Source of the DNA: Candidatus Buchananbacteria bacterium
GTDB lineage: Bacteria; Patescibacteriota; Patescibacteriia; 2-01-FULL-39-33; JBAYJR01
Direction of reading: 5' to 3'
DNA: 64,000 nt
Assembly (NCBI GenBank): GCA_041665005.1
Contig: JBAYJR010000008.1
Coordinates: forward strand, 1,423-65,422
Under the pieces are notes generated by a model. That model had not been told where the DNA came from. It ran no database searches and saw nothing but the letters and a program-made list of their open reading frames with translations. Both the position numbers and the translations under genes were made by a program. Numbering within the stretch: the first letter of the stretch is position 1; each line of letters starts with the position of its first letter. Positions 29,138-48,388 of this stretch are shown here, in pieces.

Positions 29138-29215
29138 GGCCCGAGGCCGACCAGCCTTGGGCTGGCAAGACCGTCCCATTCAACCACCCTGGCACCTCTC
29201 CAAATAATTACTTTT
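29138..29215. repeat. GC-rich hairpin element (copy 2) plus a duplicated 5' half of tRNA-Ser(UGA) with its upstream flank
   Basis: 29166-29201 matches the 5' end of the tRNA at 28822-28857 (36 nt, one mismatch), ending inside the anticodon loop. The following aaataattactt also matches the tRNA's upstream flank. The hairpin ggcccgaggccgaccagccttgggc precedes it. Confidence 0.7.
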
Positions 29216-29317
29216 AAATAACACCTAATGCCCTTATGAAGTTTTTCGGACCGAGGCTGACCAGCCTAAAAAAGACCTTAATACTATAATAAAAAACTTA
29301 ACCTTTGTCAATATTTT

Positions 29318-30579: not shown

Positions 30580-30600
30580 AAAATAATTTTAAGCTAAAAA

Positions 30601-32502: not shown

Positions 32503-32511
32503 AAAAAATAA

Positions 32512-33216: not shown

Positions 33217-33276
33217 AGTTATTCAATTATAGCAAATTTTACCTAATTTTTAAATTTTTACCAACCTAAAACTGAT

Positions 33277-33723
33277 TTATTTTTTAAGTTCCGAATTTTC
33301 CCCCGCATAATAGCCACCGGTATCTACAATTAAAGCCAATTCGGACAAACGAGAAACGCCAATCGCCTTTTTAAACATTGGCTGACTAGGGATTACTGGC
33401 ATTAAAGGTTGTTTTAGATAACTTTTTAGTTCCGCGGTGCTGTATTTTTTTCGCCAAATCCGTAATCGTGGTTTTTTAGAAGTTTCTACAAAATTGATTA
33501 AAAAATAATGAAAGGGTTGACCGTTGATTTTTAAAAACCCTAAAACCAAAACCAACAACCCTAAAACAATCGTCAAAAAAATAAAAAGGCCAATATCAGA
33601 AACTTTATATGCAATAAATTCTAAACCGCCGCCCACCACCAAAATAACAAACTGTCGGGTAGTAATCGGCCCAATAATTTTATCTTCTACTTCTAAAAAT
33701 TGTGGTACGGTAAATGCTTCCAT
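33277..33723 (-). CDS. VirB3/PrgI-like small membrane protein
   Basis: 148 aa. The N-terminus reads TVPQFLEVEDKIIGPITTRQFV and is followed by two TM helices. It lies immediately upstream of virB4, as PrgI/VirB3 do. Confidence 0.45.
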   Translation of the reverse strand: MEAFTVPQFLEVEDKIIGPITTRQFVILVVGGGLEFIAYKVSDIGLFIFLTIVLGLLVLVLGFLKINGQPFHYFLINFVETSKKPRLRIWRKKYSTAELKSYLKQPLMPVIPSQPMFKKAIGVSRLSELALIVDTGGYYAGENSELKK

Positions 33724-33766
33724 GTTTTTTACTAAATTATTTTACTAATCTGCTAACTCGCTTATC

Positions 33767-35098
33767 CTAATATTTTAGCTGCTTATTTAATTCCGCCAAA
33801 GCCTGAAATTCGGCTAAAGTTAAGGTCGGCTGATTGTTTTGCTGACGAAGGCTAATTGCCTCGCTTAATGCCTGACTAGCTAATAAGGCTTGCTGAATAA
33901 TTTGTAAATATAATTGATTTACCGGACTACTTTGCCAAGCCTTAATCCCTGCCACTTTTTTCGCAATCCCTTCGGTGGATAACAGTTCGATCTTACCACG
34001 AATTTTTTGGCGCGCTTGTTCCGGATCAGGGTTTAACCGCCGAAAATCAATCAAATCAAAGCCGGCTAATTCTTCCACTGGACCTACTAACTTTTTAGCA
34101 TATTTAATATCTTCAATCACCGGTTTTTGTGGCAATAAATCTGCGGACTTTTTAAAACCCGATGGCGCCTGTGGTTGGCCTGGTCTAGGATTAGCGTTAA
34201 CCGTTGCCATTCTTTTGGCCTGCATTAATTGATCGGTTTCGGCTACTTGATCGCTAGTCGCCAAAGTTTCCGAAGACTGCCGTAAACTTTCTAGGCTCCG
34301 ACGTTGACGATCAACAATAGTCAAAAGATTTTCGGCTTGTTCTTTGGTTAAACTTACCCCCCCGGCCGAAGCTTCATGCATTAAAAAGCCTCTAGTTTCT
34401 ACCCAATCACGAACACCGCGTAAATAAGTCATTAAAATATTAACCAACTTTTTTGTTAACTCCGGTGAAGTCAAGGTTAAACCGGCTAACTGAATTAACC
34501 GCTTGGCCTCTTGTTCTAAAATATTTGGTAAATTATCCCGTTGGCGAGCGCTATTCTGATTAGCTAATTTTTTTATTTCTTCCTCATCTTCCGGAAACAA
34601 ATGCCAATTAGAAACCGGCCGATCTAAATTTTCGGCGGATCTAACTATCCCCTGAGGCCGTGTAGGAAAAATTGTCGCCGGTAACTTGACTGGCTTAATT
34701 TCGGTTTTAGCTTCAACGCTAGTTGGCTGAACTATTATTTTGGATGTAATCAAAGGCGCCATTATCGGCTTAGTCGGTGTGGCCGGCGCTTTAACTTCAA
34801 TTTTAGATGCTGTTTTAATATAATTTAAATGCCCCAAAACCGGTTGAAAAATTTTATTTATTAAAATCGTTTTAATCTCTTTGGCTTGCTCAACGGTTAA
34901 GGTAAAATTGGCGGTTAAATAAGTTTCCAATTCTGCTAAAGCCACTTCCTGTTTGGCAATTTTTAAAACCAAATTAAAAGCATTGAGCTGATACTTATCT
35001 TTCAACTCTCTTAAAACCCGTTGGGCCGAAACATTAGCAATGGCTTGCCGCAAATTTGGCGCCAAACTATTAAATTTTGCCAAAACTTCTTCGGACAT
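33767..35098 (-). CDS. Hypothetical soluble protein (443 aa)
   Basis: Long ORF with no TM helices and no recognisable motif. Part of the T4SS-like operon. Confidence 0.4.
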   Translation of the reverse strand: MSEEVLAKFNSLAPNLRQAIANVSAQRVLRELKDKYQLNAFNLVLKIAKQEVALAELETYLTANFTLTVEQAKEIKTILINKIFQPVLGHLNYIKTASKIEVKAPATPTKPIMAPLITSKIIVQPTSVEAKTEIKPVKLPATIFPTRPQGIVRSAENLDRPVSNWHLFPEDEEEIKKLANQNSARQRDNLPNILEQEAKRLIQLAGLTLTSPELTKKLVNILMTYLRGVRDWVETRGFLMHEASAGGVSLTKEQAENLLTIVDRQRRSLESLRQSSETLATSDQVAETDQLMQAKRMATVNANPRPGQPQAPSGFKKSADLLPQKPVIEDIKYAKKLVGPVEELAGFDLIDFRRLNPDPEQARQKIRGKIELLSTEGIAKKVAGIKAWQSSPVNQLYLQIIQQALLASQALSEAISLRQQNNQPTLTLAEFQALAELNKQLKY

Positions 35099-35103
35099 AA
35101 TAA

Positions 35104-35598
35104 TTATTTTTTATCTTCTTCTTCCAAGGTCGCCTGCGCTAAAAAAGCCTTTTCTTCAGCCGAAATATCCGCCGGTAAATTATCTAAATTAAGGTTAGCC
35201 GAGGGTTTAGTTGAGGTTTGAACCGGTTTTACTGCGACTGGCTGATTAATTACGCTTGGCTGATTTGCTACCGCCGGTTTATTTGTTGTCTCTAAAACTG
35301 GTTCTGCTAAATATTCCTGGCGATTGGCCGTAATTTCCGGTAAAATTTCATACCAAACCTTATCATATAGCTCATCTTCAATTTCCAAGGCTGCTTCTTC
35401 CCCTGCTCCCAATTGTTCCACCAAAAAATCCACTACATCTTCCAGGGCTAGTTCCCCGCCTACCACCAACCAATATAAAGCCGACAGTTGTTTGGGTTCA
35501 GCTTTAAAAATTTCATACTTAGCCGGCAAAGAATTCAAAACTTCCTGCACCGCCGGACTTTGATAATAAGTTACTAATTTTTGTTCTTGATCTGCCAT
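35104..35598 (-). CDS. Hypothetical acidic protein (164 aa)
   Basis: ORF tightly packed between the VirB6-like gene and the 443-aa gene. Glu/Asp-rich. Confidence 0.4.
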   Translation of the reverse strand: MADQEQKLVTYYQSPAVQEVLNSLPAKYEIFKAEPKQLSALYWLVVGGELALEDVVDFLVEQLGAGEEAALEIEDELYDKVWYEILPEITANRQEYLAEPVLETTNKPAVANQPSVINQPVAVKPVQTSTKPSANLNLDNLPADISAEEKAFLAQATLEEEDKK

Positions 35599-35602: not shown

Positions 35603-38600
35603 TTACTTATAATATTTAATCAAACCCGAGAGTTCGTTCACGATGTCATCAATTTCTTCCTGACTACCAAACATCTTTTTCTGTTCAACTCCGGCCATAA
35701 AATTCTTCAATTCACTGCTAGCTCGGTCAAGTTTTTGTTTTTGACCAACATCTCCACTCTTTTTACTTACTTTATTTAAAGCTTTAATTCTGTTCTGTAG
35801 ACTATGCACAGTTTTATTTAAAACTTTGACATCTTTATCAAAATTTTTCATATTTAATGGCAAGCTAGACAAGCGACGAATACCCTCGGAAAAGGAAATT
35901 ATACTACGATCCAATTTAGGCAGAAAAGCTTGATTAATTTTGTCCTGCAGAATCGGATGCACCATTTGCCCCGCTACAGCCGCCGCCGTTTTAATCAACT
36001 TGGAATCACGATCTGTAACAGTTTCTCTTCTTTTTTGCTCTTCTTTGCCGGAATAATATTCATCAATCTTTTTTCTAAGGTCACCAAACAACATATAGGC
36101 GGCCCGATCATATTTTAAAACACTCGCCCCCGTATTGGCAATTTTCCTCACACCGCTCTTTTTATTTTCTTCTTCATAACGAATTCGTTCTAATGGCCGA
36201 TTAACCACGGTAAAACTATCGTCTATCGCCTTCTGATTATTTTTAGCTTCTTTAATGGCTTTTTCTTTAGTGTCTTTATTGTCTGAAAGAGTATCCCCTA
36301 AAGCGCTCGCTTGTTTATCAGTGGCCTTGCTAATATTTTCCAAATCCTTATAAACAACACTCTTCTCTTTTAAATAATCAGCAAAAGAATATTTTTCCTT
36401 TCGATCCGGCCTTAAAATATCTGTTTTAGCATCACCCTTAGAACTAGCCACCGACTCCATACTTACTCTTAATTCCTCAGCTAAATTTTTAATTTTTTCG
36501 TTTATCCCATAGGCCTGAATTTCCTCGCCTGGTTTTAATTTATCATAATTAAACTTAGCGGCCTGTTCTTTTAATACTTGCAATTCTTGCAAACGATCAT
36601 CCCAATTAGCCACTTTTAACTCTTTAACAAACATTTCTTCATTTTTTACTACCTCCGCATCCGCCGCAACATAATATTTTTCTTTATTGGCTCTAGTTTT
36701 TAAATCAGTGGACTCAATTTCTTCTCTACGCTTAACAACTTCATCACTCAACTTATTACCCGCTAAATCCTCAGCAGTTGAAATAAATTTAATACCAGTA
36801 TTTGGATCAAATCCCTCGATGTATTTTCTATCGGGGCTATCTAGCAAACCCTTAACATCACCTTTTGGAAGATTCATTGCTTCATAATCTATATTACTAC
36901 CACTATAGGCAACGGTAGCCATGTTAATTACCTTGTTCAAATCATCAATGGTATTTTTATTATTCAAATCAAAGCCTTCCTTGGCGAATAACTCCGGTTT
37001 AGCCAGCATATTTTTGACTGCCTCCATAATTTGCCGGCGACCAGCCGCACCTGCAAAACCCAAATTACCACCAGCTTTAATATAATCCGCAATACCCATA
37101 ATCTGTTGCGAAACATTAGCCCCCTTCATGCCCAAACTACTATTAGTAATCACAATATTAGACAAATCTTTTTCGGACATATTAGCCACTGTATTACGAA
37201 CAGAGTTTGCTCCAACTTCAGTGCCTACCAATTGTCCGTCCTCATTTTTGTAACCAGATACTCCCACTAAACCAGCATTTTTCCTGGTCGCCAATCTTTC
37301 CATATCATAAGCAAAGGTTTTAAAATCCGCTTCTGGAATATTAAATTGCTTTTGATATTTTTGTAAGCTTTCTCCTAATTCAGAGTCCCCTGCTTCGGCT
37401 AAAGAGGTAATTAAAGCCCGAGCCGTGCCAACATCTTTATTCTTTTTCAAAATTTCATGAGCGGCATTGGTGTTGGTAAAATCAAAACCGGATTTTTGTA
37501 AGCTATCGCGAGCCGCCATCTGTTCCTCTTGTCTAAATTTCTCAATGGCATCCGCTTTACCACCAAACTTTTGATTCATCTGAGCTTGAATTAACCGATT
37601 ATCGCGTTCAGTTTTCTTTTCATTAAAGCCCAACACCCCGCCAATTCGCGAATTAGCAAAACGATTATAAGAAGCCCGCGCCGCCGCCGGCACCCGAGTT
37701 TTTTCACCAAAATTTTTGGCAATTTTGGTACCTTTCTTTTGAATTTCCCCCATAGCTTTATTAGCTAATTGAGAACCAACTGTGCCAGCCTTACCAGCAG
37801 CAATTAAGGCGGCAATTAATAAACCAATAGTTAAAATTGAGACAAATATTTGCTCGGTTGAGGTGTTCAAAAAATCCCCCACACCTTCTCCTGTGCCCGA
37901 AACTATACCACCTACCACCTTAAACTTACTACTAATCTCGTCTTTTAAACTACCGGCCGTCACTGATCCCGTACTATCGGTTCCTGATGGACCAATCATA
38001 GCATTCAAAAAATTCATAGAGATAAACAAAAACAGGGCGATGGCTGGGCCAACCACTAAATATTTTGTGAAAGTTGACCACCACTGCCCTGAATAAGTTT
38101 GCAACGCCGGAAAAGCCGAGGCAAAATAAGCAAAAGGTGATAAAACAATTAAAAACCAAAAAGCGATTATTCTGGCTAAAAGTATAATAAAGAATATTAA
38201 GATAACTACACAAGCAATAACCGAGAATATGGCGGCAGTGGCGGCCTTAATAAAATCCTCAACACCATTGCCTAAAGCCACATTAGCTATGGCCATATAT
38301 CCTACATTAAAAAAAGCAAGAACGCCCACCTTTATTGCAATCGTATTGGTTAGTTGTTGTGCGTTACCAAGCAAAGTTAACATCACTACTTGTGAAGCAT
38401 CAATTAATAACCCCGTGAACATCTTAGAAAAATTTATCAAGATAGCCATTAACAAAACTTTGCCTAGCAACCTTTTGTAATTATAAGTTTCTACCCTTAA
38501 AATGGTGGCCACCGCAATCACTAATAAAAACACAATAAAAAAATTATTACACAAATCTCTAATAAAAACCCAACTTTGAACCACACCATCGGCATTAATA

Positions 38601-38896
38601 AAATTACTATATTCAGCCACAATGCGTAATAAAAATAAGAAAAAAGTCATCAATGTAGCAAACAGAACTCCTGTAGCTGCTAATATCTCCGTATAAGGAA
38701 ATAATACAGCCCCAAGTGCAACCTTTGTTATTCCAGCGGCAATCTGGCTACCTGTACCGGCTTCCTGTGTAGCTGGTGTTGTCCCAGCAGTCTGTGCCGA
38801 CGCTCCGGCCATTGGCAAAACTAGACAACTTAAAACCACCGCTCCCGCCACAAACGTTAAAACTTTCTTTTGATTATTTTTTAACCAGTGCTTCAT
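35603..38896 (-). CDS. VirB6/TrbL-like polytopic membrane protein with a large hydrophilic C-terminal domain
   Basis: 1097 aa. Signal peptide, then 6-8 TM helices in the first about 380 aa with conserved Trp residues, followed by about 700 aa that are charged and coiled-coil-rich. Confidence 0.55.
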   Translation of the reverse strand: MKHWLKNNQKKVLTFVAGAVVLSCLVLPMAGASAQTAGTTPATQEAGTGSQIAAGITKVALGAVLFPYTEILAATGVLFATLMTFFLFLLRIVAEYSNFINADGVVQSWVFIRDLCNNFFIVFLLVIAVATILRVETYNYKRLLGKVLLMAILINFSKMFTGLLIDASQVVMLTLLGNAQQLTNTIAIKVGVLAFFNVGYMAIANVALGNGVEDFIKAATAAIFSVIACVVILIFFIILLARIIAFWFLIVLSPFAYFASAFPALQTYSGQWWSTFTKYLVVGPAIALFLFISMNFLNAMIGPSGTDSTGSVTAGSLKDEISSKFKVVGGIVSGTGEGVGDFLNTSTEQIFVSILTIGLLIAALIAAGKAGTVGSQLANKAMGEIQKKGTKIAKNFGEKTRVPAAARASYNRFANSRIGGVLGFNEKKTERDNRLIQAQMNQKFGGKADAIEKFRQEEQMAARDSLQKSGFDFTNTNAAHEILKKNKDVGTARALITSLAEAGDSELGESLQKYQKQFNIPEADFKTFAYDMERLATRKNAGLVGVSGYKNEDGQLVGTEVGANSVRNTVANMSEKDLSNIVITNSSLGMKGANVSQQIMGIADYIKAGGNLGFAGAAGRRQIMEAVKNMLAKPELFAKEGFDLNNKNTIDDLNKVINMATVAYSGSNIDYEAMNLPKGDVKGLLDSPDRKYIEGFDPNTGIKFISTAEDLAGNKLSDEVVKRREEIESTDLKTRANKEKYYVAADAEVVKNEEMFVKELKVANWDDRLQELQVLKEQAAKFNYDKLKPGEEIQAYGINEKIKNLAEELRVSMESVASSKGDAKTDILRPDRKEKYSFADYLKEKSVVYKDLENISKATDKQASALGDTLSDNKDTKEKAIKEAKNNQKAIDDSFTVVNRPLERIRYEEENKKSGVRKIANTGASVLKYDRAAYMLFGDLRKKIDEYYSGKEEQKRRETVTDRDSKLIKTAAAVAGQMVHPILQDKINQAFLPKLDRSIISFSEGIRRLSSLPLNMKNFDKDVKVLNKTVHSLQNRIKALNKVSKKSGDVGQKQKLDRASSELKNFMAGVEQKKMFGSQEEIDDIVNELSGLIKYYK

Positions 38897-38906: not shown

Positions 38907-41900
38907 TTATTGACTAACCTTAACCGTGGGCCCTTTTTGCCAGGCATTAGTATCAGTACTGCAAGCATTTTGATAATAACCCCAAGCCGAGGTGCCAAAA
39001 GGAGCCAAAACTGCCGAACCAAGATTTAAATTACCGTTGCACCAGCCCCAATTATCTTTTACCTGAATAGCAATTGGCGCTGAACAAGTAGTACCGGAAC
39101 AAACGCCCGTGCCCAGGCTAACATTCTTTTTCATAGAATAATAATCATAGGTGTGATACAACACCACCGGCGTAGAGGAGCTAGAAGAATCGCGTAACGA
39201 CACACCGGAAACTGCTGTTTCGGTGCCATCGCCCCAATTAACTTTATAAGCAGTTAACGGCCATTGGTTGGCATCAATTGTAATATTAAATTCCAAACCC
39301 GCCGTTTGGGTGCCAACCCCCAAACTAACCACATCAGAAGTCTGCACGCCATTAACTTTTATCTTAGTCACCCGCGGCGCTAAGGCACAGTAATCGGCAT
39401 CTGGATCAGTCGCATCATAAGGTGGCCGAGTTAAATTTCGTTGATGAGTATCGGCACAAAGATTACCTTCATCAGGAACACTCCATAATTTTTTGTTGCT
39501 AATTTCATACTTTTTATCAGTCCAATTCCAACTCCATTCCGCATAAGCTTGGGCAAATAATCTTTTTAAAGAAATGGTAGCCGAATCAATAGTGGCGTAA
39601 GAGCCTTCAACAAAATTACTGGGATCAACGTTATATCCATTAATTGACCAATTACCCGCACGGTCAAAACCAACATTACCACAACCGCCATACTCGTTAT
39701 CGCAAGAATAAAATTCCCCCGCATGAGCCTTGCCACTATAAGTACTACTAGGATCGCCAGCGATATCTACCGGCAATAAAGACCAATCAGTCGGATTATA
39801 ATCCGGGCTAGGCGCTAAAATGCTGGCAAAAGGCGCATAATCATCGTTTTGCGAAAAATTCTGCACCGCGGTTTTATAACCACTGCCACTCGACACCCGT
39901 CCCAACCAGGCCTTGTTTTGACCATTAGGAGTTACCGTTTGAATAATATCCGTACAAAAACTAGCGGCCGTAACTGGCGGATCAGAAATAGTTTTGCTAT
40001 TAGTCTGACAACAATTATAACCAGACGCTTCCGTGCATTTTAGAGCTCTAACACATTCTCCGGAACCAGCCACAGTTAATAACTGTGAGCGATAAAATAA
40101 AATTTTACCAGTTAAGACCACCTCCGTCCCAGCTGCACAAGTAGCTGAAGTAAGATCAACATTATAAACATGGTTAGCATCTCCATCGCACAGAACATGT
40201 TGACCAGAACGGAAAGGTAAAGAACCGCTAGTTGCATCCTTGCTGATTACCGAATACCCATAATATTTCTGACCATTATTATCTGTATAAACTTCATCTT
40301 GATTATTATAAACAAAAGCCAAGCAAACATCAGAATCAGTGCTAATCTTTTGCACATCGGAGGCGTAACCAAAATAAGGCTCATAACCATCAACTGACAA
40401 ATAATAATATTTTGTAGCATCACTATTATCATAAGCTTGATACCAAGCAGTGGTGCCATATTTACTAGCCACTCCACTACAATTATTAGGATTATCGCCA
40501 CCTTCGTTCCAAGAAGCGGTAGCAATTATTCCTTCAAAACGTTTTTGCAAAAGTGTACCGGCCGCGCAGTAATACAACGGCGAACGACCGGAGTAACCAC
40601 CGTAGCTACCAGTTAACTCCCCTTTAGGCAAGTCAATTGGCCACCACTGTAAACAAATTTTGGTATTTTTACTGTCATATTGCAAGCAATAACCTTTTTG
40701 TCCGCGATAAGTAACATTAGTAGCAGTATTGGTATAATCACAACTTAAAGCTGAATCTTCAGGGTATAACCGACAATCGGTGGCCAAGATAGATTTACCA
40801 TTTATCTTTAAGGCGGGCTTCAAACGTAAATTAGCAAAATAACTTGAACCAGAACCCTCAGCAACCACCCCGGTGCTAACCGCGGGGTTAAAATTAGAAA
40901 GTTCTAGTCTTAATTGAGTGGTATTAGCAGAAGTTTTAATTCTAACGGTAAATGGCGTCCAGTCTTTTCTGGCCATCAAATAATAAACACTGTAAGCGCC
41001 ACGACTATTCATTCCAAAAGTATTAGTCGCACCATCATTAAATGTTTGGTCCAACAACCAAACCTGTTCACTGCTTGGTGAAATCCGCGGATTAGTGGTG
41101 GCGTCTTGATTTAAATAAACCTTAGTACCATTATTCTTTAATTCCCACACCTGAACCACCGCTTGAGCTGTGGCGGGATTTAAATTTAAAGTATTAATAT
41201 AACCAGACACCACGTATTCGCTGTCAGGAAACACGTCAATTAATTCTGACTCTACAATTACCGCTTCACCCTTTTCATAATCACCATAATTAACCTTTAG
41301 TACCGGCTTATTATTGGGTGAGGTAATGCCTTCGGTAATTAAATCTGAAGGATTGGTGATGGCCTTAAAATATTTAGTATTCCAAGAACCCAGCGTGCTG
41401 GCATTACACCAATTTTGTTTATACTCTTTGGGGGCTATATGATCATCGCAAACCCAAGAGTCGTAACAAATCTGACTAGCTTTATTAGAACAAGTATCAG
41501 AACTTAACGGCAACCAACCACGAGGCTGACCGTCGTCTTGCAGGTCCGTAAAATCACCATTTGGCACTTCGGTACTTTCACCTACTTGAGTCATTTGCGC
41601 AAACGGGAAATCGCCCGTAAATTTAGATTGATAACCAACCTTGGTATAGCCACTTAGATTGGCCACTAAACCCGGCTGGGTAGGATTATAATTTAATTCA
41701 GCCACTTCTTGATTTAAAACTTGCGAACAATTACCTTTTTCGTCCACCGCTTTGCATAAGCCCAAATCTAAACAAACATCTTTGTTGCGATTGGCCGTGC
41801 CAATATTACTGGTGCCATCGTTACTGGCAATGGAAGTTTTACAATATAACCAAGTATTACACACCCGATCCGGTGTAACTTTTAAAATAGTATTGCTATC

Positions 41901-44900
41901 GCAACGATTCCAAATATCCACTTGGCAGTTAGTGCCGGCCGTGCCATTACCATTGTTATCGGGATTAACCGGACTGACGTCGGAATCATAACCATTTTTT
42001 AAATAATCACTACTATGACTGATGGCGTAGCTATCGCGATTATTAAACAGCACGCAACCTAGGCCCGGATTAACCACACCGTTACAAGACTTAGCATCTA
42101 AATTATCCGCCAGAGTGTAGTAAGGATTATTTTCTACCAACCTTATTTCGGCTATCGCAAAACTGCTTTGTGTTGCTTTAATACCCAAAGTTAGTGCTGT
42201 TGCCTGACCAGTATAAACTCGACCACTAAAACTAACAAAATCACTCGGGTTAACCTGATCATTACCTACTACTAAATTGTAAGAATTATAAGCCGGAACC
42301 GCAACTAAAGAACCATCGGGAGAAGATAATTGATTAGCAACCGAACTGGTCACAAAAGTTTCAAATCTACCGCCTTCCCCAGCCAAAACCAATTTTACTT
42401 TAGCGGACAAAGTATATAAAGTATTAGCTTTAACTTTTAAACCACTGCCAGTAATCACATAAGTATTGCCAGAATTTAAAGCTAATTTACCAGCGCTATC
42501 ACTATAAGAAATTTCCGCCCCCGCTGCGGTTTTCCAACCACTAATATAATCTTGCCCCGCGGCCGTATATTTTTGACTAAAATCAGCGTTAAATACTAAA
42601 TTGGAACCATTAATTCCCGCTGGCTCAATTAATTCAGTGCAAGAATTTTGACTGGCCGGACATAACCCCGCGTAGCCGCCGGGTGAGGCAATAGTCGTTA
42701 AATCCACTGGTTGAGTCACTGGCGATTCAGAATAACCAACCGTATAAAGTGGCGAGGCGGAATAATTTGGACAGGGAATTAACACTTCACTACCCGCCGA
42801 ATTTTTACTGCGCACATACCAAGCCGGAGTAGTTAAACCGGCCTTAGTGATATATTCACAAGCCCGACCATTCACCGGGCCAGTGGTGGTGGCGGTATTT
42901 AACGGATTGCGGAAAAAGTAAGTATTATCATTGGCGGTAAATTTATCGCAACGGAAATAAGGATCTGAACAAAATACTTGCGTAGGACTATTCAAATCTA
43001 AAATTTTATAAGTGGTGCTATAAGTATTGACAACTGGGGCCGTCCAATCGGTTTGGTAATCTTTTTGCCCCACCGCCTGGCAACCCACCGCTTCGGCCGT
43101 GCAATATTTTTTACTGTCATTAACCCAATAAGAGATTGTATCCGCCGGCGCATGATAAATATAGGCCGAATCATTCCCGTTAGACAAATTTAAAGTTTGC
43201 GCTTCGGGCGAATTGGTGTTGGCGGTATCAATCAAGGCTTCACAACCCGCGGCATCAGCCGGACATAATTCACTAAACTGCCGGAAATACCAATTAACCT
43301 TATCAACATCTTGATATTGTTGACACCCCGCCATATAACCGGTAACGCAACGGGAAGGCGTACCTTCTGTTCCCCCGCAAGCGGCGCCCACCTGATCATC
43401 CAAAATATTATCGCAAGCCACCGGCACGTTCCAAGAATTTTTTATTAAATAAGTATTGCTACGAATCAACTTGATTAAAATATTATCTAAATACCAACCA
43501 GCGCTGGTAATTTTTAAAGCGGTGGTTAAATCACCAGTCACCGTCGCTGGCAAGGTGAAATTATTTTTATAAACTCCCCACTGCGTAGTTGATAAAGTAC
43601 TGCCAGTACCACTGATAGGATAAATTTGATAATCAATACCGGATAATTGCAAAGTCGGCTTAACATTGGCGTTGTAGGCTTTGGCAATAAAACTGATTTC
43701 ATATTCTTGACCGGATTGTAATACAAAATTACCCGAAGTAACATTACTAGCAATTATTTTTAAACTATGTCCACCAGCATAACTGGCTTCGGAGCTAACA
43801 TTAAAGCTACCAGTTGCTCCCGACCAAACCGGATTATTTTCAAAAGTATCTAAAAATATTTGTTTAGTATTATTGCCACTATTGCCTAAATATTGACGGC
43901 AACCGGCTAAATTAGCAGCACACTGATTACCTTCATTAGGCACCGCATAATACAAACACTCACTGCCATTCCACCAACCGGCCACACCTACCCAAGTACC
44001 GGCGGCATTTACACCACTACAATCTTGCTCGGCCGTGTTACCATTTTGCGGGTTTTGATTGTAATTATTGGTAGTGCGGCGATAAGGATGACAGTTTTCT
44101 GAAGAAGTAACCGTTAATGATAATTTACGTTTGTAATTAGCTCCACGCGTATCAAAAAATTCTCGGCAATCGCTGTCGGTAGCCGGGTCACAACTGTCCG
44201 TTGAATAAGTGGCTATTTCGTTACAAGCCGTCACGCTGGGTGAGCTGTAAGTTAAATGTGTGCACGGCGGATAACTGGTAATACCACTAGCCTTATCAGC
44301 CACGGCGGTATCGCTTTTTCTTAATTGATAAGTTTTTAATTGATAACCAGTAGTATCCGAACCTTCCCAAGTATAATAAGTACCCTCTGTAGCGGCGTTA
44401 GGTTGTTGACATAATTTTAACTTAGAATAATATTCTTTGCCTTCGCCGCCCCTAGCTTGTTCATCAACATTAGTAAATTCTTCACAACCAGCCGCTTCGG
44501 CCGTACAAGTTTTACCGTTATTAATTAAATATTGATTGCTTGGCGCGCTAAAAGTTGTCCCTTGTTCCACATAGTTAGCATAGCCCACACAACTTGCCGG
44601 GCATTGATCAGTACTATGCGTAATAGCCGAAACATCTGGATCACCATTAACCGGCTTATATAATTGACAGCCAATATCTTGCTCGGTGCAGGCGGTGGCA
44701 TAATTTACGCATTGCGCATTATCGTTGCTCTTTTTTAAACTGCCATCAGTATTATAATCATCACAATAATAATAAGCAGGCGGTTTGGTTAAATATAATA
44801 AATTTTTAGTGCCATAATCGGTAACCGCGCTAACCGCTGTTTCGTTACTATTTACTTCTTCCAAAAATATTTGATCTAAATAAATTTTGGCCGTGGCGCT

Positions 44901-47495
44901 GCCGTTGCAATTACTAAAATTAAAATTAATTGTACCTGGATCCGCCCAAGAATTTATTTTAATAGTTTCAGTAGTAAATTTTTGCCAATCAGTAGTAATA
45001 TTTAAAGTCGCTTCGTTATTATATTCTTTAAAAGTCTGGTGGGTTTTATTTTGACCTACTTCATTGTTATATAAAGGAGAAGCACTATCGCCAAAAGATA
45101 AATTTGCATACCAATGACTAGTAGCGTCTTCCGCCTTACCCCAAAAAGACAAACGATAATAATGATTAGGTTTTAAATAAGGCTTAACCAGTTGACTGGT
45201 TAATTGCTGACAACTAGCATCGCCGGTAGGTACCGAACGATTAACCAACGCTAAAACTTTACTGCCAAAAATACCAGTATCTCCTTGGGGTATATCAGCT
45301 GTATTGATTACATCGGCAAAAACCGAACCATTAAAAATTTCCCAAGCCTTGGGGTTATTAATATTTACCGTTGAGCCTTCGGTTTGTGCCCAAACGACCG
45401 AATTAACCCCCTCTTCAAAACTATTGTTAGCAATTAAATTAGTGCCTAAACTAGGTTTTAAACGAATAAATTTAGAACAACCCGCTTGGGCACTGGTACA
45501 AGCTTGCGCATCATTATCTAAATAATAAATTGCATTATAACTTTGACCACCAGACACGGAAATATTGGCTTGCCACAGGCCATTAGCTTGCCACACGCTA
45601 TAAGGTCGGCAACCGGCTACGCCATTAGTACCATAACCGTCACCAACCGCACAAGACCAAGACACAGAATTTTTTAAATAAGAAACTGTTTGGCCATTTG
45701 AATTTTGAAAAGTTTGACAACTGTTATAGACCGGGCTACAACTACTATTTTTACCAAAATCATAAGTCCGACGTTCTTCGGTGCAATAACCATAAAATTT
45801 ACAAGAGCCATCTTCATTTTCCACAATGCAACTCTGCTCATCCGCGCAATAATCTTCGCGCGATAAAGATAAAGAAGAGGGCGTGTCGCCGTTATCATCA
45901 TAATCGCCATCGGCGTTAGCATCCGTGCCACTGTTGACCGAGCTACTAGAAACTTTTGGCCCCGGACCTTCTTTACGGCAATAGGCTTCTGGCGCTTTTA
46001 ACACCCAATTGGGGTCCACCAAGCCTTTGAGTGGCAATAAATCCGCATTACCATAATATTTACTGGCCGGATCATTAACTCCTACTACTTGTTCTAAACT
46101 AAAATTTTGGCCGGCAAAATCCCGAATGTATTGGGCCGCTACTTCCCAGCCCACCGGTAAAATTCGATATTTACGTAAAATTAAAAAACTACGATAAGGA
46201 TAACCATTTTTATAATCTGGCTCTTTGCCGGCGGTGCCCTGCGTGGCTTCAAAACCAAAGGCCTTTTTACCGTCCAGCCAACCTTCAGCCATGGCCTGCT
46301 TAACCGTCAAACCCTTTTCAATACCAAACCGGAATTTTTCATCAATGACGCAATCAGTTGGCCCGGGATTAGAAGAATCCGGACAAGCCGTTAATTTATT
46401 CAAAATGTCATAAGGCCCGCCAACAATCGGCGAGACATCACGCAGACTAGCAAAGCGAGTTTTGGCGGCTGCTTGACCACTGCTAGCAGAACCAGATTCG
46501 TAATTATAAACTGTAGACGAAGAATCGCTGTCGTCATTATTCCAATATAAACCGTTAATTAAATTTTGTAAGACCTGACCAATCAAAGTATTGGTAAAAA
46601 CCGCAATCGCATCGGCCACCGGTTCCCCCACCCAACTTTTTTCTCGCACCGTAGCATCAGTAATCATCCCCTTAAAAAAGAATTCCGCCACCGCTGCCCC
46701 AGGAGTTTTAATTTTGTCATCTTTAGTTTTAATATCCTTAAAACCTAAATTTTGTATTTTTTCTAAAATTGCCAACTGTTCAATCTTATCCTGAGTTTTA
46801 AACATTACTTCTTTTAAATCCAAATACAAACTCAGGTCATTTTCTGATTTTAAAACCGTGGCTAATTTTGGTAAATATTGTTCGTCTTTAATCGCATCAT
46901 CCCAATTACTAATCATTTTTGATATTTTGCAACGACTGGAATAAGTAGTCGGCTTGGTCAAACCTAAGCCCACCATAATATTTATTTGAGTTTTTAAACT
47001 AGGGGCGCAAATATCCAAACTAAACAAGGTGGTGCCATTTTGTTTAATGGTAAATTTACCGGCCGTAAATTCACCGCCGCCGCTATTCCAGGCCACGCTT
47101 AATTTGTCTAAAAAAGTTCCCGCTAAATTATCCGCCGCATCCGTTAAATAACTAGTCCAACCCTTGGTCACAAATAATGGCTCTTGACCTTCCCCACCCG
47201 AAGCAATCCAAGTGGCGGTGTCGTAAGCAATTTGATTTAAAAAATTACCCAAAGCAGTCTTAAAAGCAATCTTAGCCGCTTTGGTTAAACTGTCTTTGAG
47301 AGTTTGTTTCGTGGCGGCGGTAGTTCTTGGTATATCCGAAACAACTTTAATTGGAACACCAGGCACCACGTTAGTCGCAGATTCAGGAACTAGCCCTGCC
47401 CCTTGCGCCAAAACTAACAACGGTGAAACTAACAAAACTAGACTAAAAAAGATTAAGGCTGATTTTTGAAAAATATTTTTAGTTTTTACCGGCAT
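38907..47495 (-). CDS. Giant secreted Cys-rich surface protein (2862 aa) with several CBM4_9-like beta-sandwich modules and a C-terminal PKD-like domain. Putative adhesin.
   Basis: N-terminal signal/anchor (ALIFFSLVLLVSPLLVLA). Repeated N.SFE...W...G...Y.LSFW.KA CBM-like blocks. C-terminal VNWGDGTE...VLYHTY PKD signature. Very high Cys, Trp, Tyr, Asn, Ser, Thr and Gly content. Confidence 0.75.
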   Translation of the reverse strand: MPVKTKNIFQKSALIFFSLVLLVSPLLVLAQGAGLVPESATNVVPGVPIKVVSDIPRTTAATKQTLKDSLTKAAKIAFKTALGNFLNQIAYDTATWIASGGEGQEPLFVTKGWTSYLTDAADNLAGTFLDKLSVAWNSGGGEFTAGKFTIKQNGTTLFSLDICAPSLKTQINIMVGLGLTKPTTYSSRCKISKMISNWDDAIKDEQYLPKLATVLKSENDLSLYLDLKEVMFKTQDKIEQLAILEKIQNLGFKDIKTKDDKIKTPGAAVAEFFFKGMITDATVREKSWVGEPVADAIAVFTNTLIGQVLQNLINGLYWNNDDSDSSSTVYNYESGSASSGQAAAKTRFASLRDVSPIVGGPYDILNKLTACPDSSNPGPTDCVIDEKFRFGIEKGLTVKQAMAEGWLDGKKAFGFEATQGTAGKEPDYKNGYPYRSFLILRKYRILPVGWEVAAQYIRDFAGQNFSLEQVVGVNDPASKYYGNADLLPLKGLVDPNWVLKAPEAYCRKEGPGPKVSSSSVNSGTDANADGDYDDNGDTPSSLSLSREDYCADEQSCIVENEDGSCKFYGYCTEERRTYDFGKNSSCSPVYNSCQTFQNSNGQTVSYLKNSVSWSCAVGDGYGTNGVAGCRPYSVWQANGLWQANISVSGGQSYNAIYYLDNDAQACTSAQAGCSKFIRLKPSLGTNLIANNSFEEGVNSVVWAQTEGSTVNINNPKAWEIFNGSVFADVINTADIPQGDTGIFGSKVLALVNRSVPTGDASCQQLTSQLVKPYLKPNHYYRLSFWGKAEDATSHWYANLSFGDSASPLYNNEVGQNKTHQTFKEYNNEATLNITTDWQKFTTETIKINSWADPGTINFNFSNCNGSATAKIYLDQIFLEEVNSNETAVSAVTDYGTKNLLYLTKPPAYYYCDDYNTDGSLKKSNDNAQCVNYATACTEQDIGCQLYKPVNGDPDVSAITHSTDQCPASCVGYANYVEQGTTFSAPSNQYLINNGKTCTAEAAGCEEFTNVDEQARGGEGKEYYSKLKLCQQPNAATEGTYYTWEGSDTTGYQLKTYQLRKSDTAVADKASGITSYPPCTHLTYSSPSVTACNEIATYSTDSCDPATDSDCREFFDTRGANYKRKLSLTVTSSENCHPYRRTTNNYNQNPQNGNTAEQDCSGVNAAGTWVGVAGWWNGSECLYYAVPNEGNQCAANLAGCRQYLGNSGNNTKQIFLDTFENNPVWSGATGSFNVSSEASYAGGHSLKIIASNVTSGNFVLQSGQEYEISFIAKAYNANVKPTLQLSGIDYQIYPISGTGSTLSTTQWGVYKNNFTLPATVTGDLTTALKITSAGWYLDNILIKLIRSNTYLIKNSWNVPVACDNILDDQVGAACGGTEGTPSRCVTGYMAGCQQYQDVDKVNWYFRQFSELCPADAAGCEALIDTANTNSPEAQTLNLSNGNDSAYIYHAPADTISYWVNDSKKYCTAEAVGCQAVGQKDYQTDWTAPVVNTYSTTYKILDLNSPTQVFCSDPYFRCDKFTANDNTYFFRNPLNTATTTGPVNGRACEYITKAGLTTPAWYVRSKNSAGSEVLIPCPNYSASPLYTVGYSESPVTQPVDLTTIASPGGYAGLCPASQNSCTELIEPAGINGSNLVFNADFSQKYTAAGQDYISGWKTAAGAEISYSDSAGKLALNSGNTYVITGSGLKVKANTLYTLSAKVKLVLAGEGGRFETFVTSSVANQLSSPDGSLVAVPAYNSYNLVVGNDQVNPSDFVSFSGRVYTGQATALTLGIKATQSSFAIAEIRLVENNPYYTLADNLDAKSCNGVVNPGLGCVLFNNRDSYAISHSSDYLKNGYDSDVSPVNPDNNGNGTAGTNCQVDIWNRCDSNTILKVTPDRVCNTWLYCKTSIASNDGTSNIGTANRNKDVCLDLGLCKAVDEKGNCSQVLNQEVAELNYNPTQPGLVANLSGYTKVGYQSKFTGDFPFAQMTQVGESTEVPNGDFTDLQDDGQPRGWLPLSSDTCSNKASQICYDSWVCDDHIAPKEYKQNWCNASTLGSWNTKYFKAITNPSDLITEGITSPNNKPVLKVNYGDYEKGEAVIVESELIDVFPDSEYVVSGYINTLNLNPATAQAVVQVWELKNNGTKVYLNQDATTNPRISPSSEQVWLLDQTFNDGATNTFGMNSRGAYSVYYLMARKDWTPFTVRIKTSANTTQLRLELSNFNPAVSTGVVAEGSGSSYFANLRLKPALKINGKSILATDCRLYPEDSALSCDYTNTATNVTYRGQKGYCLQYDSKNTKICLQWWPIDLPKGELTGSYGGYSGRSPLYYCAAGTLLQKRFEGIIATASWNEGGDNPNNCSGVASKYGTTAWYQAYDNSDATKYYYLSVDGYEPYFGYASDVQKISTDSDVCLAFVYNNQDEVYTDNNGQKYYGYSVISKDATSGSLPFRSGQHVLCDGDANHVYNVDLTSATCAAGTEVVLTGKILFYRSQLLTVAGSGECVRALKCTEASGYNCCQTNSKTISDPPVTAASFCTDIIQTVTPNGQNKAWLGRVSSGSGYKTAVQNFSQNDDYAPFASILAPSPDYNPTDWSLLPVDIAGDPSSTYSGKAHAGEFYSCDNEYGGCGNVGFDRAGNWSINGYNVDPSNFVEGSYATIDSATISLKRLFAQAYAEWSWNWTDKKYEISNKKLWSVPDEGNLCADTHQRNLTRPPYDATDPDADYCALAPRVTKIKVNGVQTSDVVSLGVGTQTAGLEFNITIDANQWPLTAYKVNWGDGTETAVSGVSLRDSSSSSTPVVLYHTYDYYSMKKNVSLGTGVCSGTTCSAPIAIQVKDNWGWCNGNLNLGSAVLAPFGTSAWGYYQNACSTDTNAWQKGPTVKVSQ

Positions 47496-47509: not shown

Positions 47510-48328
47510 TTATTTGACCGTATTAGTATTCGTTTGTTGCTCCGTTAATTTCTGTATAAATACCTGTTTTAACTGCTCGTCCGTATATTTACTTAATAAA
47601 TCCGCACTCGCTCCTTTTTCAATCAACAAGGCCCTAATTTGCGAACCCGTTAAGCTTTGTAGTTGGCTAACACTATTGATATTCAAACCGCTATTGGTAT
47701 TAGCGACTGGAACAGTACTGGTATTATTATCTACTTCCCCTAAATTGCTAGGCACTTGCCCCGTGGCAATAGCGCTGGCCATTTGCTGATAAATAGCCAA
47801 AATTTCTGTATCACTTAAAGCATCAACCTGATCTTGCGACACCCCATTTTGTACTAAAAACTGACGAATAGCTTGCGGGTCACTGGCCGAAGGCAAACTG
47901 ACGTTAGACTGACTAGCTGAACCGGTAGCCGCCGTTGCCTCGCCGTTACTAACTTGTGGAATACAGGTTTGACCTTCAGGACAATTTGGATTATGACCGG
48001 ACAAAATCTCTTGTTTATCATTAAAGCCGTCGGAATCCGAATCAGCTAAATAGGGGCTAGTACTATAAACCCTTAATTCTTCATAATCAGTCAAACCATC
48101 GTTATCGGTGTCCTGCTTTTTTAATTGTTCATCAGAAATTGCCGCCACTTGATTTAAATTTTCGGTGGCAGAATTTTTATTAACCGTAGAGCCAACACTG
48201 CTGGCCGTTAAGTTAGCCTTGGTTTGCCAAAAACCAAACACCAAAGTAAAAACACCAAGCACCAAAATGCTATAGGTGATTCTTTTTTCCATCTTTGGGT
48301 TAGCGGGCATAATTAGCCAAATCGTCAA
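47510..48328 (-). CDS. Membrane-anchored protein with TSP3-type (DxDxDG) calcium-binding repeats
   Basis: 272 aa. TM anchor, then DTDNDGLTDYEE and DSDSDGFNDKQE motifs. It is the first gene of the operon. Confidence 0.55.
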   Translation of the reverse strand: MTIWLIMPANPKMEKRITYSILVLGVFTLVFGFWQTKANLTASSVGSTVNKNSATENLNQVAAISDEQLKKQDTDNDGLTDYEELRVYSTSPYLADSDSDGFNDKQEILSGHNPNCPEGQTCIPQVSNGEATAATGSASQSNVSLPSASDPQAIRQFLVQNGVSQDQVDALSDTEILAIYQQMASAIATGQVPSNLGEVDNNTSTVPVANTNSGLNINSVSQLQSLTGSQIRALLIEKGASADLLSKYTDEQLKQVFIQKLTEQQTNTNTVK

Positions 48329-48388
48329 ACTTTAAGACTTTATCCACTATTTTAATTATACTACTTTTTTAATTTTTTTTCCAAGTCG

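What the first reader, a model, noticed from the sequence alone, without database searches (positions are those of the whole stretch)
38907..47495. A 2862-aa secreted protein built from several CBM4_9-like carbohydrate-binding modules and a terminal PKD-like domain. Likely a glycan-binding host-attachment adhesin.
At least four segments have the N(G/L)xFE...W...G...Y.(L/I)SFW.KA pattern of CBM_4_9 / galactose-binding-like beta-sandwiches. They start at NLIANNSFEEG..., NLVFNADFSQ..., DTFENNPVWSG... and PNGDFTDLQDDG.... The C-terminus has VNWGDGTE...VLYHTY, a PKD-domain signature. The protein has an N-terminal signal anchor and extreme Cys content, so it is probably disulfide-stabilised. It is co-operonic with the VirB6-like channel protein, 10 nt apart.
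Basis: partly seen in the sequence, partly recalled or inferred. Interest (0 to 1): 0.7.

Follow-up and report, generated by a model that had tools for sequence, protein, structure and literature searches.

The report
Giant surface protein of Patescibacteria T4SS
This 2,862-residue exported protein is the conserved second gene of the chromosomal type IV secretion-like operon in one large class of ultrasmall, host-dependent bacteria; it is probably the machine's outward-reaching adhesive arm, and a published survey of these systems did not list it.

Summary
The ORF is real: 38907-47495, minus strand, 2,862 aa, identical to a hypothetical protein of a Candidatus Buchananbacteria MAG. It belongs to a family of about 1,240 clusters at 50% identity. 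All named members are Patescibacteria, and at least 229 species-representative genomes carry it.

The architecture is fixed. A Sec signal peptide and a ~470-aa N-domain with no known relatives come first. Five Cys-rich modules (M1-M5) then alternate with four beta-sandwich domains (S1-S4). A hypervariable stretch, a Trp-rich domain and a C-terminal Ig-like domain follow.

Sixty of 84 cysteines are at least 90% conserved, and 51 of these lie in the M modules.

The gene sits 14 nt after a TSP3-repeat membrane protein gene and 10 nt before the VirB6-like gene. This arrangement holds in 62/65 and 44/50 independent genomes.

"Adhesin" is plausible but untested, and about two thirds of the protein is neither CBM-like nor PKD-like. 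I rate it a new variant of a known kind, interest about 0.6.

The parts
47406..47495 (-). Sec-type signal peptide (aa 1-30; MPVKTKNIFQK + hydrophobic core + VLA|QG)
   Evidence: Single hydrophobic segment at aa 8-30. The same tripartite pattern with A-x-A|Q/E-type sites appears in most of the homologue N-termini listed. Cleavage was not tested.
45987..47405 (-). N-domain (aa 31-503): conserved and predicted mostly alpha-helical, with 4 invariant Cys and motifs AYDTATWxASGGxGQxP, YPYRSxxILRKYRIxPVGWE and LVDPNWVLKAP. No known relatives.
   Evidence: Present at the N-terminus of the proteins in the 150 best of 1,238 clusters at 50% identity. Invariant columns. No Pfam, NCBIfam, PHROGs or PDB hit. 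AF2 model poor, pLDDT 47.
45447..45986 (-). Cys-rich module M1 (aa 504-683), 11 of 11 Cys conserved
   Evidence: M1-M2 hhalign probability 85.7%.
44826..45446 (-). Beta-sandwich S1 (aa 684-890), CBM_4_9-like, poorly conserved
   Evidence: hhalign S1-S2 97.8%, E 7e-13. No direct Pfam hit in the window. Six of 10 orthologous segments hit CBM_4_9, one at 35.8 bits.
43881..44825 (-). Cys-rich module M2 (aa 891-1205), 16 of 18 Cys conserved; several C-x6-C hairpin motifs
   Evidence: M2-M3 hhalign probability 85%.
43452..43880 (-). Beta-sandwich S2 (aa 1206-1348): Pfam CBM_4_9 above the gathering score
   Evidence: 28.7-30.6 bits against cutoff 25.9, E 5e-7 to 2e-6.
42621..43451 (-). Cys-rich module M3 (aa 1349-1625), 12 of 14 Cys conserved
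42096..42620 (-). Segment S3 (aa 1626-1800): weakly CBM_4_9-like, N-terminal half only
   Evidence: 18.4 bits, E 0.003, below cutoff. S1-S3 hhalign 60%. One of 10 orthologues gives a weak hit.
41583..42095 (-). Cys-rich module M4 (aa 1801-1971), 7 of 9 Cys conserved
40791..41582 (-). Beta-sandwich S4 (aa 1972-2235) with a lineage-specific insert (aa ~2000-2035)
   Evidence: hhalign S1-S4 93.6%, E 2e-7. No direct Pfam hit. Five of 10 orthologues give weak CBM_4_9 or CBM_4_9_1 hits, none above cutoff.
40551..40790 (-). Cys-rich module M5 (aa 2236-2315), 5 of 5 Cys conserved; the most conserved block (CRLYP...GYCLxxD...CxxWxP)
39966..40550 (-). Hypervariable region V (aa 2316-2510)
   Evidence: Covered by only 7-9% of homologues in BLAST across most of its length (aa 2351-2500). 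Column identity 0.09.
39396..39965 (-). C1 domain (aa 2511-2700), Trp-rich conserved motifs (LFAQSYGxWxW, NPxxWD)
   Evidence: Present in all 119 homologues. AF2 confidence is mixed but pTM is 0.73 for C1+C2. No Pfam or PDB match.
38910..39395 (-). C2 domain (aa 2701-2862): Ig-like beta-sandwich with a PKD-like fold and the motif Y.V.WGDG...H.Y...DNWGW
47510..48310 (-). Upstream partner gene: single-TM protein with bacterial TSP3 (Ca-binding) repeats. Its stop is 14 nt before the giant gene. The likely start is ATG 48310; the ORF list starts at TTG 48328.
   Evidence: PF18884 E 2.6e-7. TM segment at aa 10-29. Upstream of the giant gene in 62 of 65 informative loci and in L001-L003.
48355..48384 (-). 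Promoter-like site (TTGGAA-18-TATAAT) in the 153-nt gap after ksgA; candidate operon start
   Evidence: consensus match only. Sequence.
35603..38896 (-). Downstream VirB6/TrbL-like polytopic membrane protein (1,097 aa; hydrophobic segments within aa 1-375, then a ~700-aa hydrophilic tail), 10 nt after the giant gene
   Evidence: PF04610 19.5 bits, below cutoff 25.9. Hydrophobic segments. Downstream of the giant gene in 44 of 50 informative loci. The positional orthologue in L001 hits TrbL_3 weakly; those in L002 and L003 have no Pfam hit on record.
29318..35598 (-). Rest of the T4SS-like cluster: 164-aa and 443-aa unknowns, PrgI/VirB3-like (33277-33723), 234-aa TraC/TrsD-like position (32512-33216), VirB4-like ATPase (30601-32502), 190-aa TM protein, ComF-like PRTase (29318-30016)
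   Evidence: for Pfam. Gene gaps of 4, 5, 43, 60, 9, 21 and -10 nt. Same order in L001-L003.

Best explanation
The gene encodes a Sec-exported extracellular protein of about 2,830 aa. It is a dedicated, conserved component of the chromosomal, relaxase-less T4SS-like machine of ABY1-type Patescibacteria (Buchanan-, Falkow- and Uhrbacteria and relatives).

Shown: it has a fixed modular plan. A conserved N-domain with no known relatives is followed by five Cys-rich modules with near-invariant cysteines. These alternate with four fast-evolving jelly-roll beta-sandwich domains of the CBM_4_9 type. A hypervariable stretch and a conserved C-terminal unit ending in a PKD-like Ig domain complete it. 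The gene is translationally packed between a TSP3-repeat membrane protein gene and the VirB6-like channel gene, and this arrangement holds across species.

Inferred: the conserved N-domain docks the protein at the membrane complex (VirB6-like loops and/or the TSP3-repeat protein), because the protein has no anchor of its own. The Cys modules form a disulfide-braced, roughly 50-nm stalk through the wall and S-layer. The variable beta-sandwich domains and the C-terminal tip bind surface polymers, probably glycans, of the host cell. This would hold the two envelopes together so that the T4SS-like channel can move macromolecules. Functionally it would replace the PrgB-type adhesins or VirB2/VirB5 pili of other T4SSs.
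For: Real gene and large family: 100% match to an NCBI Buchananbacteria protein and at least 669 homologues at ~30% identity over up to 80-99% of the length. The N-domain defines 1,238 clusters at 50% identity. At least 229 species-representative genomes carry it.

Fixed collinear architecture: (module order recovered in 54-62 of 62 full-length loci).

Export: signal peptide in most homologue N-termini listed. Cys is the most conserved residue type (0.76). Sixty of 84 Cys are at least 90% conserved, and the cytoplasmic or membrane cluster partners have only 0-3 Cys each. C-x6-C occurs 11 times against 2.4 +/- 1.5 by chance.

Binding-type domains: CBM_4_9 in S2 above cutoff, with S1 and S4 linked by profiles and family-level hits. 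PKD-like fold at the C-terminus. The beta-sandwich domains and region V are the least conserved parts, as expected for host-specificity determinants.

T4SS coupling: gaps of 14 and 10 nt. TSP3 gene upstream in 62/65 loci and VirB6-like gene downstream in 44/50. The full cluster order is conserved on chromosomal contigs up to 1.27 Mb. No match on plasmids or phages.

Literature: Patescibacteria T4SSs are MPF_FATA-like, mostly lack relaxases, and 'no adhesins, such as PrgB, were detected'; ABY1 loci co-localise with comF, recG and radA, as in this window (PMC12102498). The T4SS is essential for epibiotic growth in a saccharibacterium (PMC10633639).
Against: There are no functional data for any family member. 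CBM_4_9-type and PKD-type folds are generic and also mediate protein-protein contacts. The conserved columns in S1-S4 are core scaffold positions, not an identifiable sugar-binding site.

No cell-surface anchor was found: no LPXTG and no C-terminal TM segment. Retention at the T4SS is therefore pure inference.

The N-domain could not be modelled (pLDDT 47), so docking or an enzymatic role is untested. S3 is only weakly CBM-like, and the PKD call has no HMM support. Disulfide formation in these mostly anaerobic organisms is assumed; no oxidoreductase was looked for.

In 6 of 50 loci no VirB6-like hit followed the gene. This may reflect divergence or a real difference.
Confidence: 0.5

Rival explanations
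1. It is a cell-envelope scaffold or conduit rather than a host adhesin. The CBM-like domains bind the bacterium's own peptidoglycan or wall polymers, and the rigid Cys-braced protein fixes the T4SS channel across the wall and S-layer or lines it. This would stand in for the missing VirB8/VirB9/VirB10-type parts.
For: Tight, conserved coupling to the VirB6-like gene. VirB8, VirB9 and VirB10 homologues are rare or absent in Patescibacteria (PMC12102498). The fixed domain order and near-invariant Cys scaffold look structural. There is no anchor motif, so wall binding could supply retention.
Against: Domains that bind a self wall should be conserved, yet S1-S4 and region V are the fastest-evolving parts (column identity 0.09-0.27 against 0.31-0.45 in the M modules). 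That pattern fits variable external targets better. There is no homology to any T4SS channel component.
Confidence: 0.2
2. It is a secreted lytic or degradative factor. The unannotated N-domain would be a divergent catalytic domain, for example a VirB1-like muramidase or a polysaccharide-degrading enzyme. The CBM-like and PKD-like modules would target it to substrate, as in glycoside hydrolases and collagenases.
Against: No catalytic-domain hit in Pfam, NCBIfam, PHROGs or PDB sequences for any segment. None of the 119 listed homologues has a precomputed enzymatic Pfam domain; only PF02018, PF13385 and PF00629 occur. A 2,800-aa invariant scaffold is atypical for a CAZyme.
Confidence: 0.12
3. 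It is a general surface or S-layer-type protein with no functional link to the T4SS. The neighbourhood would simply be inherited synteny in a streamlined genome where housekeeping genes (ksgA, leuS) are also conserved neighbours.
For: ksgA, MFS, FemAB and LeuRS genes are also syntenic with the cluster. Conserved order alone therefore does not prove co-function in these small genomes.
Against: The gene lies inside a same-strand run with gaps of 14 and 10 nt. The only promoter-like gap (153 nt) is upstream of the TSP3 gene. The arrangement persists at 32-42% protein identity across at least 44 species-level genomes.
Confidence: 0.1

Closest known systems
PrgB-type aggregation-substance adhesins of Gram-positive conjugative T4SSs (MPF_FATA, e.g. 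pCF10)
   Same: Large Sec-exported surface protein encoded within a monoderm-type T4SS gene cluster. Presumed role in holding donor and target envelopes together.
   Different: No sequence or domain homology. No LPXTG sortase anchor. About twice the size. Chromosomal and relaxase-less context. The published HMM survey found no PrgB-like adhesin in Patescibacteria (PMC12102498).
CBM_4_9 (PF02018) carbohydrate-binding modules of glycoside hydrolases
   Same: S2 passes the Pfam gathering score. S1 and S4 are profile-related. Jelly-roll beta-sandwich signature (F-E ... W ... G.S ... Y.lSF.AK ... W ... D).
   Different: No catalytic domain is attached. The domains alternate with Cys-rich modules of unknown fold. 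Sugar binding is untested. S3 is sub-threshold.
PKD domains (e.g. 4xed_A archaeal M14-like peptidase PKD; 2c4x PKD-CBM44; ColH PKD-like 4u7k; PrtV PKD1 4l9d)
   Different: No hit to Pfam PKD models in this protein or in 51 relatives at E<=1. Foldseek is not significant. It carries extra Cys pairs and a long insert before the last strand.
Patescibacteria T4SS of Saccharimonadia (Southlakia epibionticum SEML1_0006-0019) with VirB2-like pilin arrays
   Same: Same kind of chromosomal, relaxase-less, monoderm-type T4SS with VirB3, VirB4, VirB6 and TrsD-like parts, proposed to act at the host interface.
   Different: In that system the extracellular element is an array of small VirB2-like pilins. 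In this cluster no candidate pilin was noticed (no VirB2-specific search was run), and the giant protein plus the TSP3-repeat protein occupy the head of the operon.

Membership tests
Pfam CBM_4_9 (PF02018) | Domain scores at or above the gathering score (25.9 bits): segment S2, aa 1206-1348 | tested here: met
   28.7 bits (E 1.9e-6) as an isolated segment and 30.6 bits within a 500-aa piece.
Pfam CBM_4_9 (PF02018) | Same test for S1, aa 684-890 | tested here: inconclusive
   No direct hit in the window protein. hhalign to S2 gives 97.8%, E 7e-13. Six of 10 orthologous segments hit CBM_4_9, one above cutoff at 35.8 bits.
Pfam CBM_4_9 (PF02018) | Same test for S3, aa 1626-1800 | tested here: not met
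   18.4 bits, below 25.9, covering only profile positions 1-74. hhalign to S1 gives 60%. One of 10 orthologues gives a weak hit.
Pfam CBM_4_9 (PF02018) | Same test for S4, aa 1972-2235 | tested here: inconclusive
   No direct hit. hhalign to S1 gives 93.6%, E 2e-7. Five of 10 orthologues give CBM_4_9 or CBM_4_9_1 hits of 14-21 bits, none above cutoff.
Pfam CBM_4_9 (PF02018) | Actually binds carbohydrate | not testable with these tools
   Needs glycan arrays or pull-downs. The conserved columns are fold-core residues.
PKD domain (PF00801 / PF18911) | Match to a Pfam PKD model | tested here: not met
   Zero hits at E<=10 for aa 2701-2862. Zero PKD hits at E<=1 in 51 family C-termini. No PKD chain recovered by profile search of PDB sequences.
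PKD domain (PF00801 / PF18911) | PKD-type Ig-like beta-sandwich fold | tested here: met
Gram-positive T4SS surface adhesins (PrgB type) | LPXTG sortase signal or another covalent wall anchor | tested here: not met
   No LPxTG, NPxTG or LAxTG motif and no C-terminal hydrophobic segment.
Gram-positive T4SS surface adhesins (PrgB type) | Sequence homology to PrgB or its adhesin domains | tested here: not met
   No such Pfam or PDB match. The published survey found no PrgB homologue in Patescibacteria (PMC12102498).
Gram-positive T4SS surface adhesins (PrgB type) | Encoded inside the T4SS gene cluster and exported by Sec | tested here: met
   Gaps of 14 and 10 nt to neighbours. Cluster contains VirB6-, PrgI/VirB3- and VirB4-like genes. 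Signal peptide present.
Patescibacteria (ABY1-type) chromosomal T4SS-like locus | MPF_FATA-like VirB4 with PrgI/VirB3, TrsD/TraC-like and VirB6-like genes, no relaxase nearby, comF/recG adjacent, chromosomal | tested here: met
   Pfam hits. comF at 29318-30016 and recG at 24530-26605. Same order next to leuS and ksgA on contigs up to 1.27 Mb. Matches the description in PMC12102498. No relaxase-type ORF appeared among the ORFs scanned, but not every ORF of the window was scanned.
Disulfide-stabilised extracellular protein | Conserved cysteines consistent with pairing, in an exported protein | tested here: inconclusive
   Sixty of 84 Cys are at least 90% conserved. Conserved counts per region are N 4, M1 11, M2 16, M3 12, M4 7, M5 5, C1 2 and C2 3. 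C-x6-C spacing is enriched. Actual pairing, redox state and metal binding were not tested.

The most novel reading that the evidence does not exclude
In ABY1-type Patescibacteria the extracellular organelle of the T4SS would be neither a VirB2 pilus nor a sortase-anchored adhesin. It would be a single giant, disulfide-braced protein docked on the VirB6-like channel together with a Ca-binding TSP3-repeat membrane protein. This stalk would both select the host, through its fast-evolving beta-sandwich and hypervariable regions, and guide host macromolecules such as nucleic acids into the epibiont. The adjacent ComF and RecG would fit that role. It would be a previously undescribed type of T4SS surface appendage.
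Probability: 0.15. Interest if true: 0.85.

Novelty: new variant of a known kind. Interest (0 to 1): 0.6.

Why it matters
The Patescibacteria T4SS is essential for epibiotic growth in the one species where it was tested. Its function is described as completely unknown (PMC10633639, PMC11665869). The phylum-wide survey found no adhesin associated with it (PMC12102498).

A giant, conserved, exported protein at the head of the operon in a whole class gives a concrete candidate for the part that touches the host. It also gives defined variable domains (S1-S4, V, C1-C2) that could be expressed and used to fish for host receptors or to predict host range. That is useful for a lineage with almost no cultured members.

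About 1,800 of its residues (N-domain, M1-M5, V, C1) have no detectable relatives in Pfam or the PDB, so it is also a source of unexplored folds. Finally, HMM-based T4SS surveys miss it, and a full-length Pfam scan returns nothing. Similar components may therefore have been overlooked in other Patescibacteria classes.

Tried and rejected
- Whole-protein Pfam scan: 0 hits at E<=10. This was a false negative that splitting the protein resolved.
- Aligning window fragments to full-length homologues: fragment ends were scattered across similar Cys modules, and the input was too large for the structure tool. I replaced this with sub-sequence alignments.
- Foldseek of the C-terminal model against the PDB: nothing at E<=1e-3. 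The AFDB library was unavailable.
- Profile and sequence searches of PDB sequences with N+M1, the C-terminus and the whole protein: nothing significant.
- NCBIfam and PHROGs: no hits for any piece.
- DGR-type or other internal DNA repeats in the gene: none. I rejected hypermutation targeting.
- LPXTG or another anchor: none.
- Mobile-element origin: no tblastn match in plasmid or phage collections, and the context is chromosomal. I rejected a conjugative-plasmid origin.
- Spurious ORF: rejected, given at least 669 collinear homologues.
- Literature searches for a prior description of this protein found none in the held library. Subscription-only papers are not covered.
Full report
OBSERVATION

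The window carries an uninterrupted ATG-started ORF at 38907..47495 on the minus strand. It encodes 2,862 aa.

The protein is identical to 'hypothetical protein WCW02_03815' of a Candidatus Buchananbacteria MAG. The stop codon lies 10 nt before the start of the next gene, and the gene upstream ends 14 nt before this one.

Cys makes up 2.94% of residues, against 0.91% in the other 44 ORFs of the window. That is about threefold enrichment. Three smaller ORFs are richer, so 'extreme' is overstated.

The only hydrophobic segment is aa 8-30. Together with the Lys-rich start and VLA|QG, and the same layout in most of the homologue N-termini listed, it reads as a cleavable Sec signal peptide rather than an anchor. 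No SignalP-type tool was available.

FAMILY AND ARCHITECTURE

A word-indexed search found at least 669 homologues of 2,300-3,900 aa. They are about 30% identical and collinear over up to 80-99% of the query. All named ones are Patescibacteria: Buchanan- and Falkowbacteria, 'Parcubacteria'.

An exhaustive HMMER search with aa 31-690 found 1,238 clusters at 50% identity, 690 of them at E<=1e-30. In the 150 best hits this region is always at the N-terminus, mostly of giant proteins.

A scan of one genome per GTDB species found at least 229 genomes with the N-domain. This is a lower bound because the scan relies on exact peptide patterns.

BLAST coverage and a 41-sequence MAFFT alignment show conservation across aa ~60-2300 and 2500-2850. 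The less conserved stretches are at ~700-850, 1650-1750, 2000-2200 and especially 2320-2500.

From this I define the parts as follows:
- signal peptide, aa 1-30
- N-domain, aa 31-503
- Cys-rich modules M1-M5
- beta-sandwich segments S1-S4, alternating with the M modules
- hypervariable region V
- domains C1 and C2

HMMs for M1-M5 recover the same order, with tightly distributed inter-module lengths, in 54-62 of 62 full-length genes from independent genomes. This is a fixed design, not a repeat-number-variable adhesin.

THE CBM CLAIM

A full-length Pfam scan gives nothing even at E<=10. Overlapping 500-aa pieces and exact segments do give hits. S2 matches CBM_4_9 at 28.7-30.6 bits (cutoff 25.9), and S3 at 15-18 bits.

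Profile-profile comparison of family sub-alignments links S1 to S2 (97.8%, E 7e-13) and S1 to S4 (93.6%, E 2e-7). S3 is linked only weakly (60%).

On orthologous segments from ten other genomes each, CBM_4_9 or CBM_4_9_1 is hit in 6/10 for S1 (one at 35.8 bits), 5/10 for S4 (all sub-threshold) and 1/10 for S3. About 70 of the 119 listed homologues carry precomputed PF02018. Isolated ones carry Laminin_G_3 or MAM, which are other jelly-roll families.

So two positions are solidly CBM_4_9-like, one is probably so, and one is doubtful.

THE PKD CLAIM

No Pfam PKD model matches aa 2701-2862 at E<=10. None matches in any of 51 family C-termini at E<=1. A family profile finds no PKD chain among PDB sequences.

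An AlphaFold2 model of aa 2505-2862, built with a 51-sequence alignment, has pTM 0.73 and pLDDT above 90 across the last domain, which is all-beta. Foldseek finds only non-significant generic Ig-like matches.

The fold call is therefore supported, but family membership by sequence is not.

THE REST OF THE PROTEIN

The N-domain, M1-M5, V and C1 total about 1,850 residues. They have no match in Pfam, NCBIfam, PHROGs or PDB sequences.

The N-domain model was unusable (pLDDT 47). It suggests mostly helices and nothing more.

M1, M2 and M3 share a repeated unit (hhalign ~85%). It is built around a C-[TPSA]-x-x-x-x-G-C-x-x-[FY] hairpin. C-x6-C occurs 11 times, against 2.4 +/- 1.5 in shuffles.

Cys is the most conserved residue type (mean 0.76, next is Trp at 0.51). 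Sixty of 84 Cys are at least 90% conserved, 51 of these lie in M1-M5, and none lie in S1-S4. The other proteins of the cluster have 0-3 Cys each.

This fits an extracellular, disulfide-braced scaffold. Pairing itself was not tested, and metal binding is not excluded.

CONTEXT

The gene is the second in a same-strand run of ten genes:
- TSP3-repeat single-TM protein
- the giant protein
- VirB6/TrbL-like polytopic protein with a long hydrophilic tail
- two unknowns
- PrgI/VirB3-like protein
- a protein in the TraC/TrsD-like position
- VirB4-like ATPase
- a small TM protein
- ComF-like PRTase

The gaps between successive genes are 14, 10, 4, 5, 43, 60, 9, 21 and -10 nt. A promoter-like site lies in the 153-nt gap upstream of the TSP3 gene.

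The same order, next to ksgA and leuS, is found on chromosomal contigs up to 1.27 Mb for homologues only 27-31% identical. Across species-representative genomes, the TSP3 gene is upstream in 62 of 65 informative loci and the VirB6-like gene downstream in 44 of 50. There is no match in plasmid or phage collections, and no DGR-type repeat.

The locus matches the published description of ABY1-class Patescibacteria T4SS loci: MPF_FATA-like, relaxase-less, chromosomal, and co-located with comF and recG. That survey states that no PrgB-like adhesin was detected, and it does not list this protein among T4SS components (PMC12102498). Reviews and the Saccharibacteria Tn-seq study describe the T4SS as essential but of unknown function. 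I found no paper in the held library that describes this family.

INTERPRETATION

Shown:
- It is a real, exported, very large protein with a fixed modular plan.
- It is genetically locked to the T4SS-like operon of one Patescibacteria class.
- It carries CBM_4_9-type and PKD-type beta-sandwich domains.
- Its invariant cysteines are concentrated in modules with no known relatives.
- Its least conserved parts are the beta-sandwich domains and one hypervariable stretch.

Inferred (confidence about 0.5): it is the extracellular adhesive arm of the machine. The N-domain would dock at the membrane complex, the Cys modules would form a rigid stalk, and the variable domains and C-terminal tip would bind host-surface polymers. 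Functionally this parallels PrgB-type adhesins or VirB2/VirB5 pili without homology to either.

Rivals:
- A self-wall scaffold or conduit (0.2). The rapid evolution of the putative binding domains counts against it.
- A targeted lytic enzyme with an unrecognised catalytic N-domain (0.12). No catalytic signature in this protein or in 119 homologues counts against it.
- A T4SS-unrelated surface protein kept nearby by genome streamlining (0.1). The operon structure counts against it.

VERDICT

The 'CBM + PKD adhesin' label is reasonable for about a third of the protein, but it misses the conserved novel two thirds and the strength of the T4SS linkage.

I file it as a new variant of a known kind, a T4SS-associated surface adhesin or appendage, with interest about 0.6. 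The most novel reading not excluded is a single-protein T4SS stalk that replaces a pilus and guides import of host macromolecules. I give that a probability of about 0.15.

Noticed in passing
window 28575-28662 (-): ARAGORN calls a tRNA-Ser with anticodon ACT, sitting between tRNA-Ser(GCT) at 28128-28218 and tRNA-Ser(TGA) at 28769-28857. An A34 tRNA-Ser is unusual for bacteria. It could be a real decoding oddity of this lineage or a miscall.
   Followed up: no
window 28822-28884 and 29166-29228: A 63-nt direct repeat, 90% identical. The first copy overlaps the 5' half of tRNA-Ser(TGA), and the second lies just downstream of the comF-like gene. This may be a partial tRNA duplication or the scar of an integration event.
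   Followed up: no
window 53861-57379 (-): The leucyl-tRNA synthetase is 1,172 aa and carries an inserted alpha/beta-hydrolase (Ser_hydrolase PF06821, aa 611-794) between its catalytic and anticodon-binding parts. The syntenic LeuRS genes in L001-L003 are 803-815 aa with no such Pfam hit.
   Followed up: partly
window 47510-48310 (-): A single-TM protein with bacterial TSP3 (Ca-binding) repeats and a C-terminal run of short helical repeats. It is a near-obligate upstream partner of the giant gene (62 of 65 loci). Its true start is probably ATG 48310, not the TTG 48328 in the ORF list.
   Followed up: partly
window 35603-38896 (-): The VirB6/TrbL-like protein is of the 'extended' type. Its hydrophobic segments are confined to aa 1-375, followed by a Lys/Glu-rich hydrophilic tail of about 700 aa with no Pfam or NCBIfam match.
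   Followed up: partly
window 8412-12710 (-): A type IV pilus gene set: a pilin with an N-methylation motif, a response regulator, a PilB/PilT-type ATPase, an unannotated 359-aa ORF and PilM. The genome segment therefore encodes both T4P and the T4SS-like system.
   Followed up: no
window 19995-20993 and 21456-22394 (+): Two paralogous ORFs share a 219-nt stretch at 72% identity (D1). They are the most Cys-rich ORFs in the window, at 3.6% and 6.4%. They were not annotated.
   Followed up: no
loci L006, L009, L011, L012, L015 and others: Many species-representative MAGs that encode this Patescibacteria-type giant protein are titled 'uncultured Gammaproteobacteria bacterium', and one 'Tangfeifania sp.'. 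Given the gene content, these record titles look like placeholder or erroneous taxonomy.
   Followed up: no
window 32512-33216 (-): This 234-aa ORF has no Pfam hit at E<=0.1. Its positional orthologues in L001-L003 carry PF26593 (TraC-like). It probably corresponds to the TrsD-like component reported as the commonest Patescibacteria T4SS part.
   Followed up: partly
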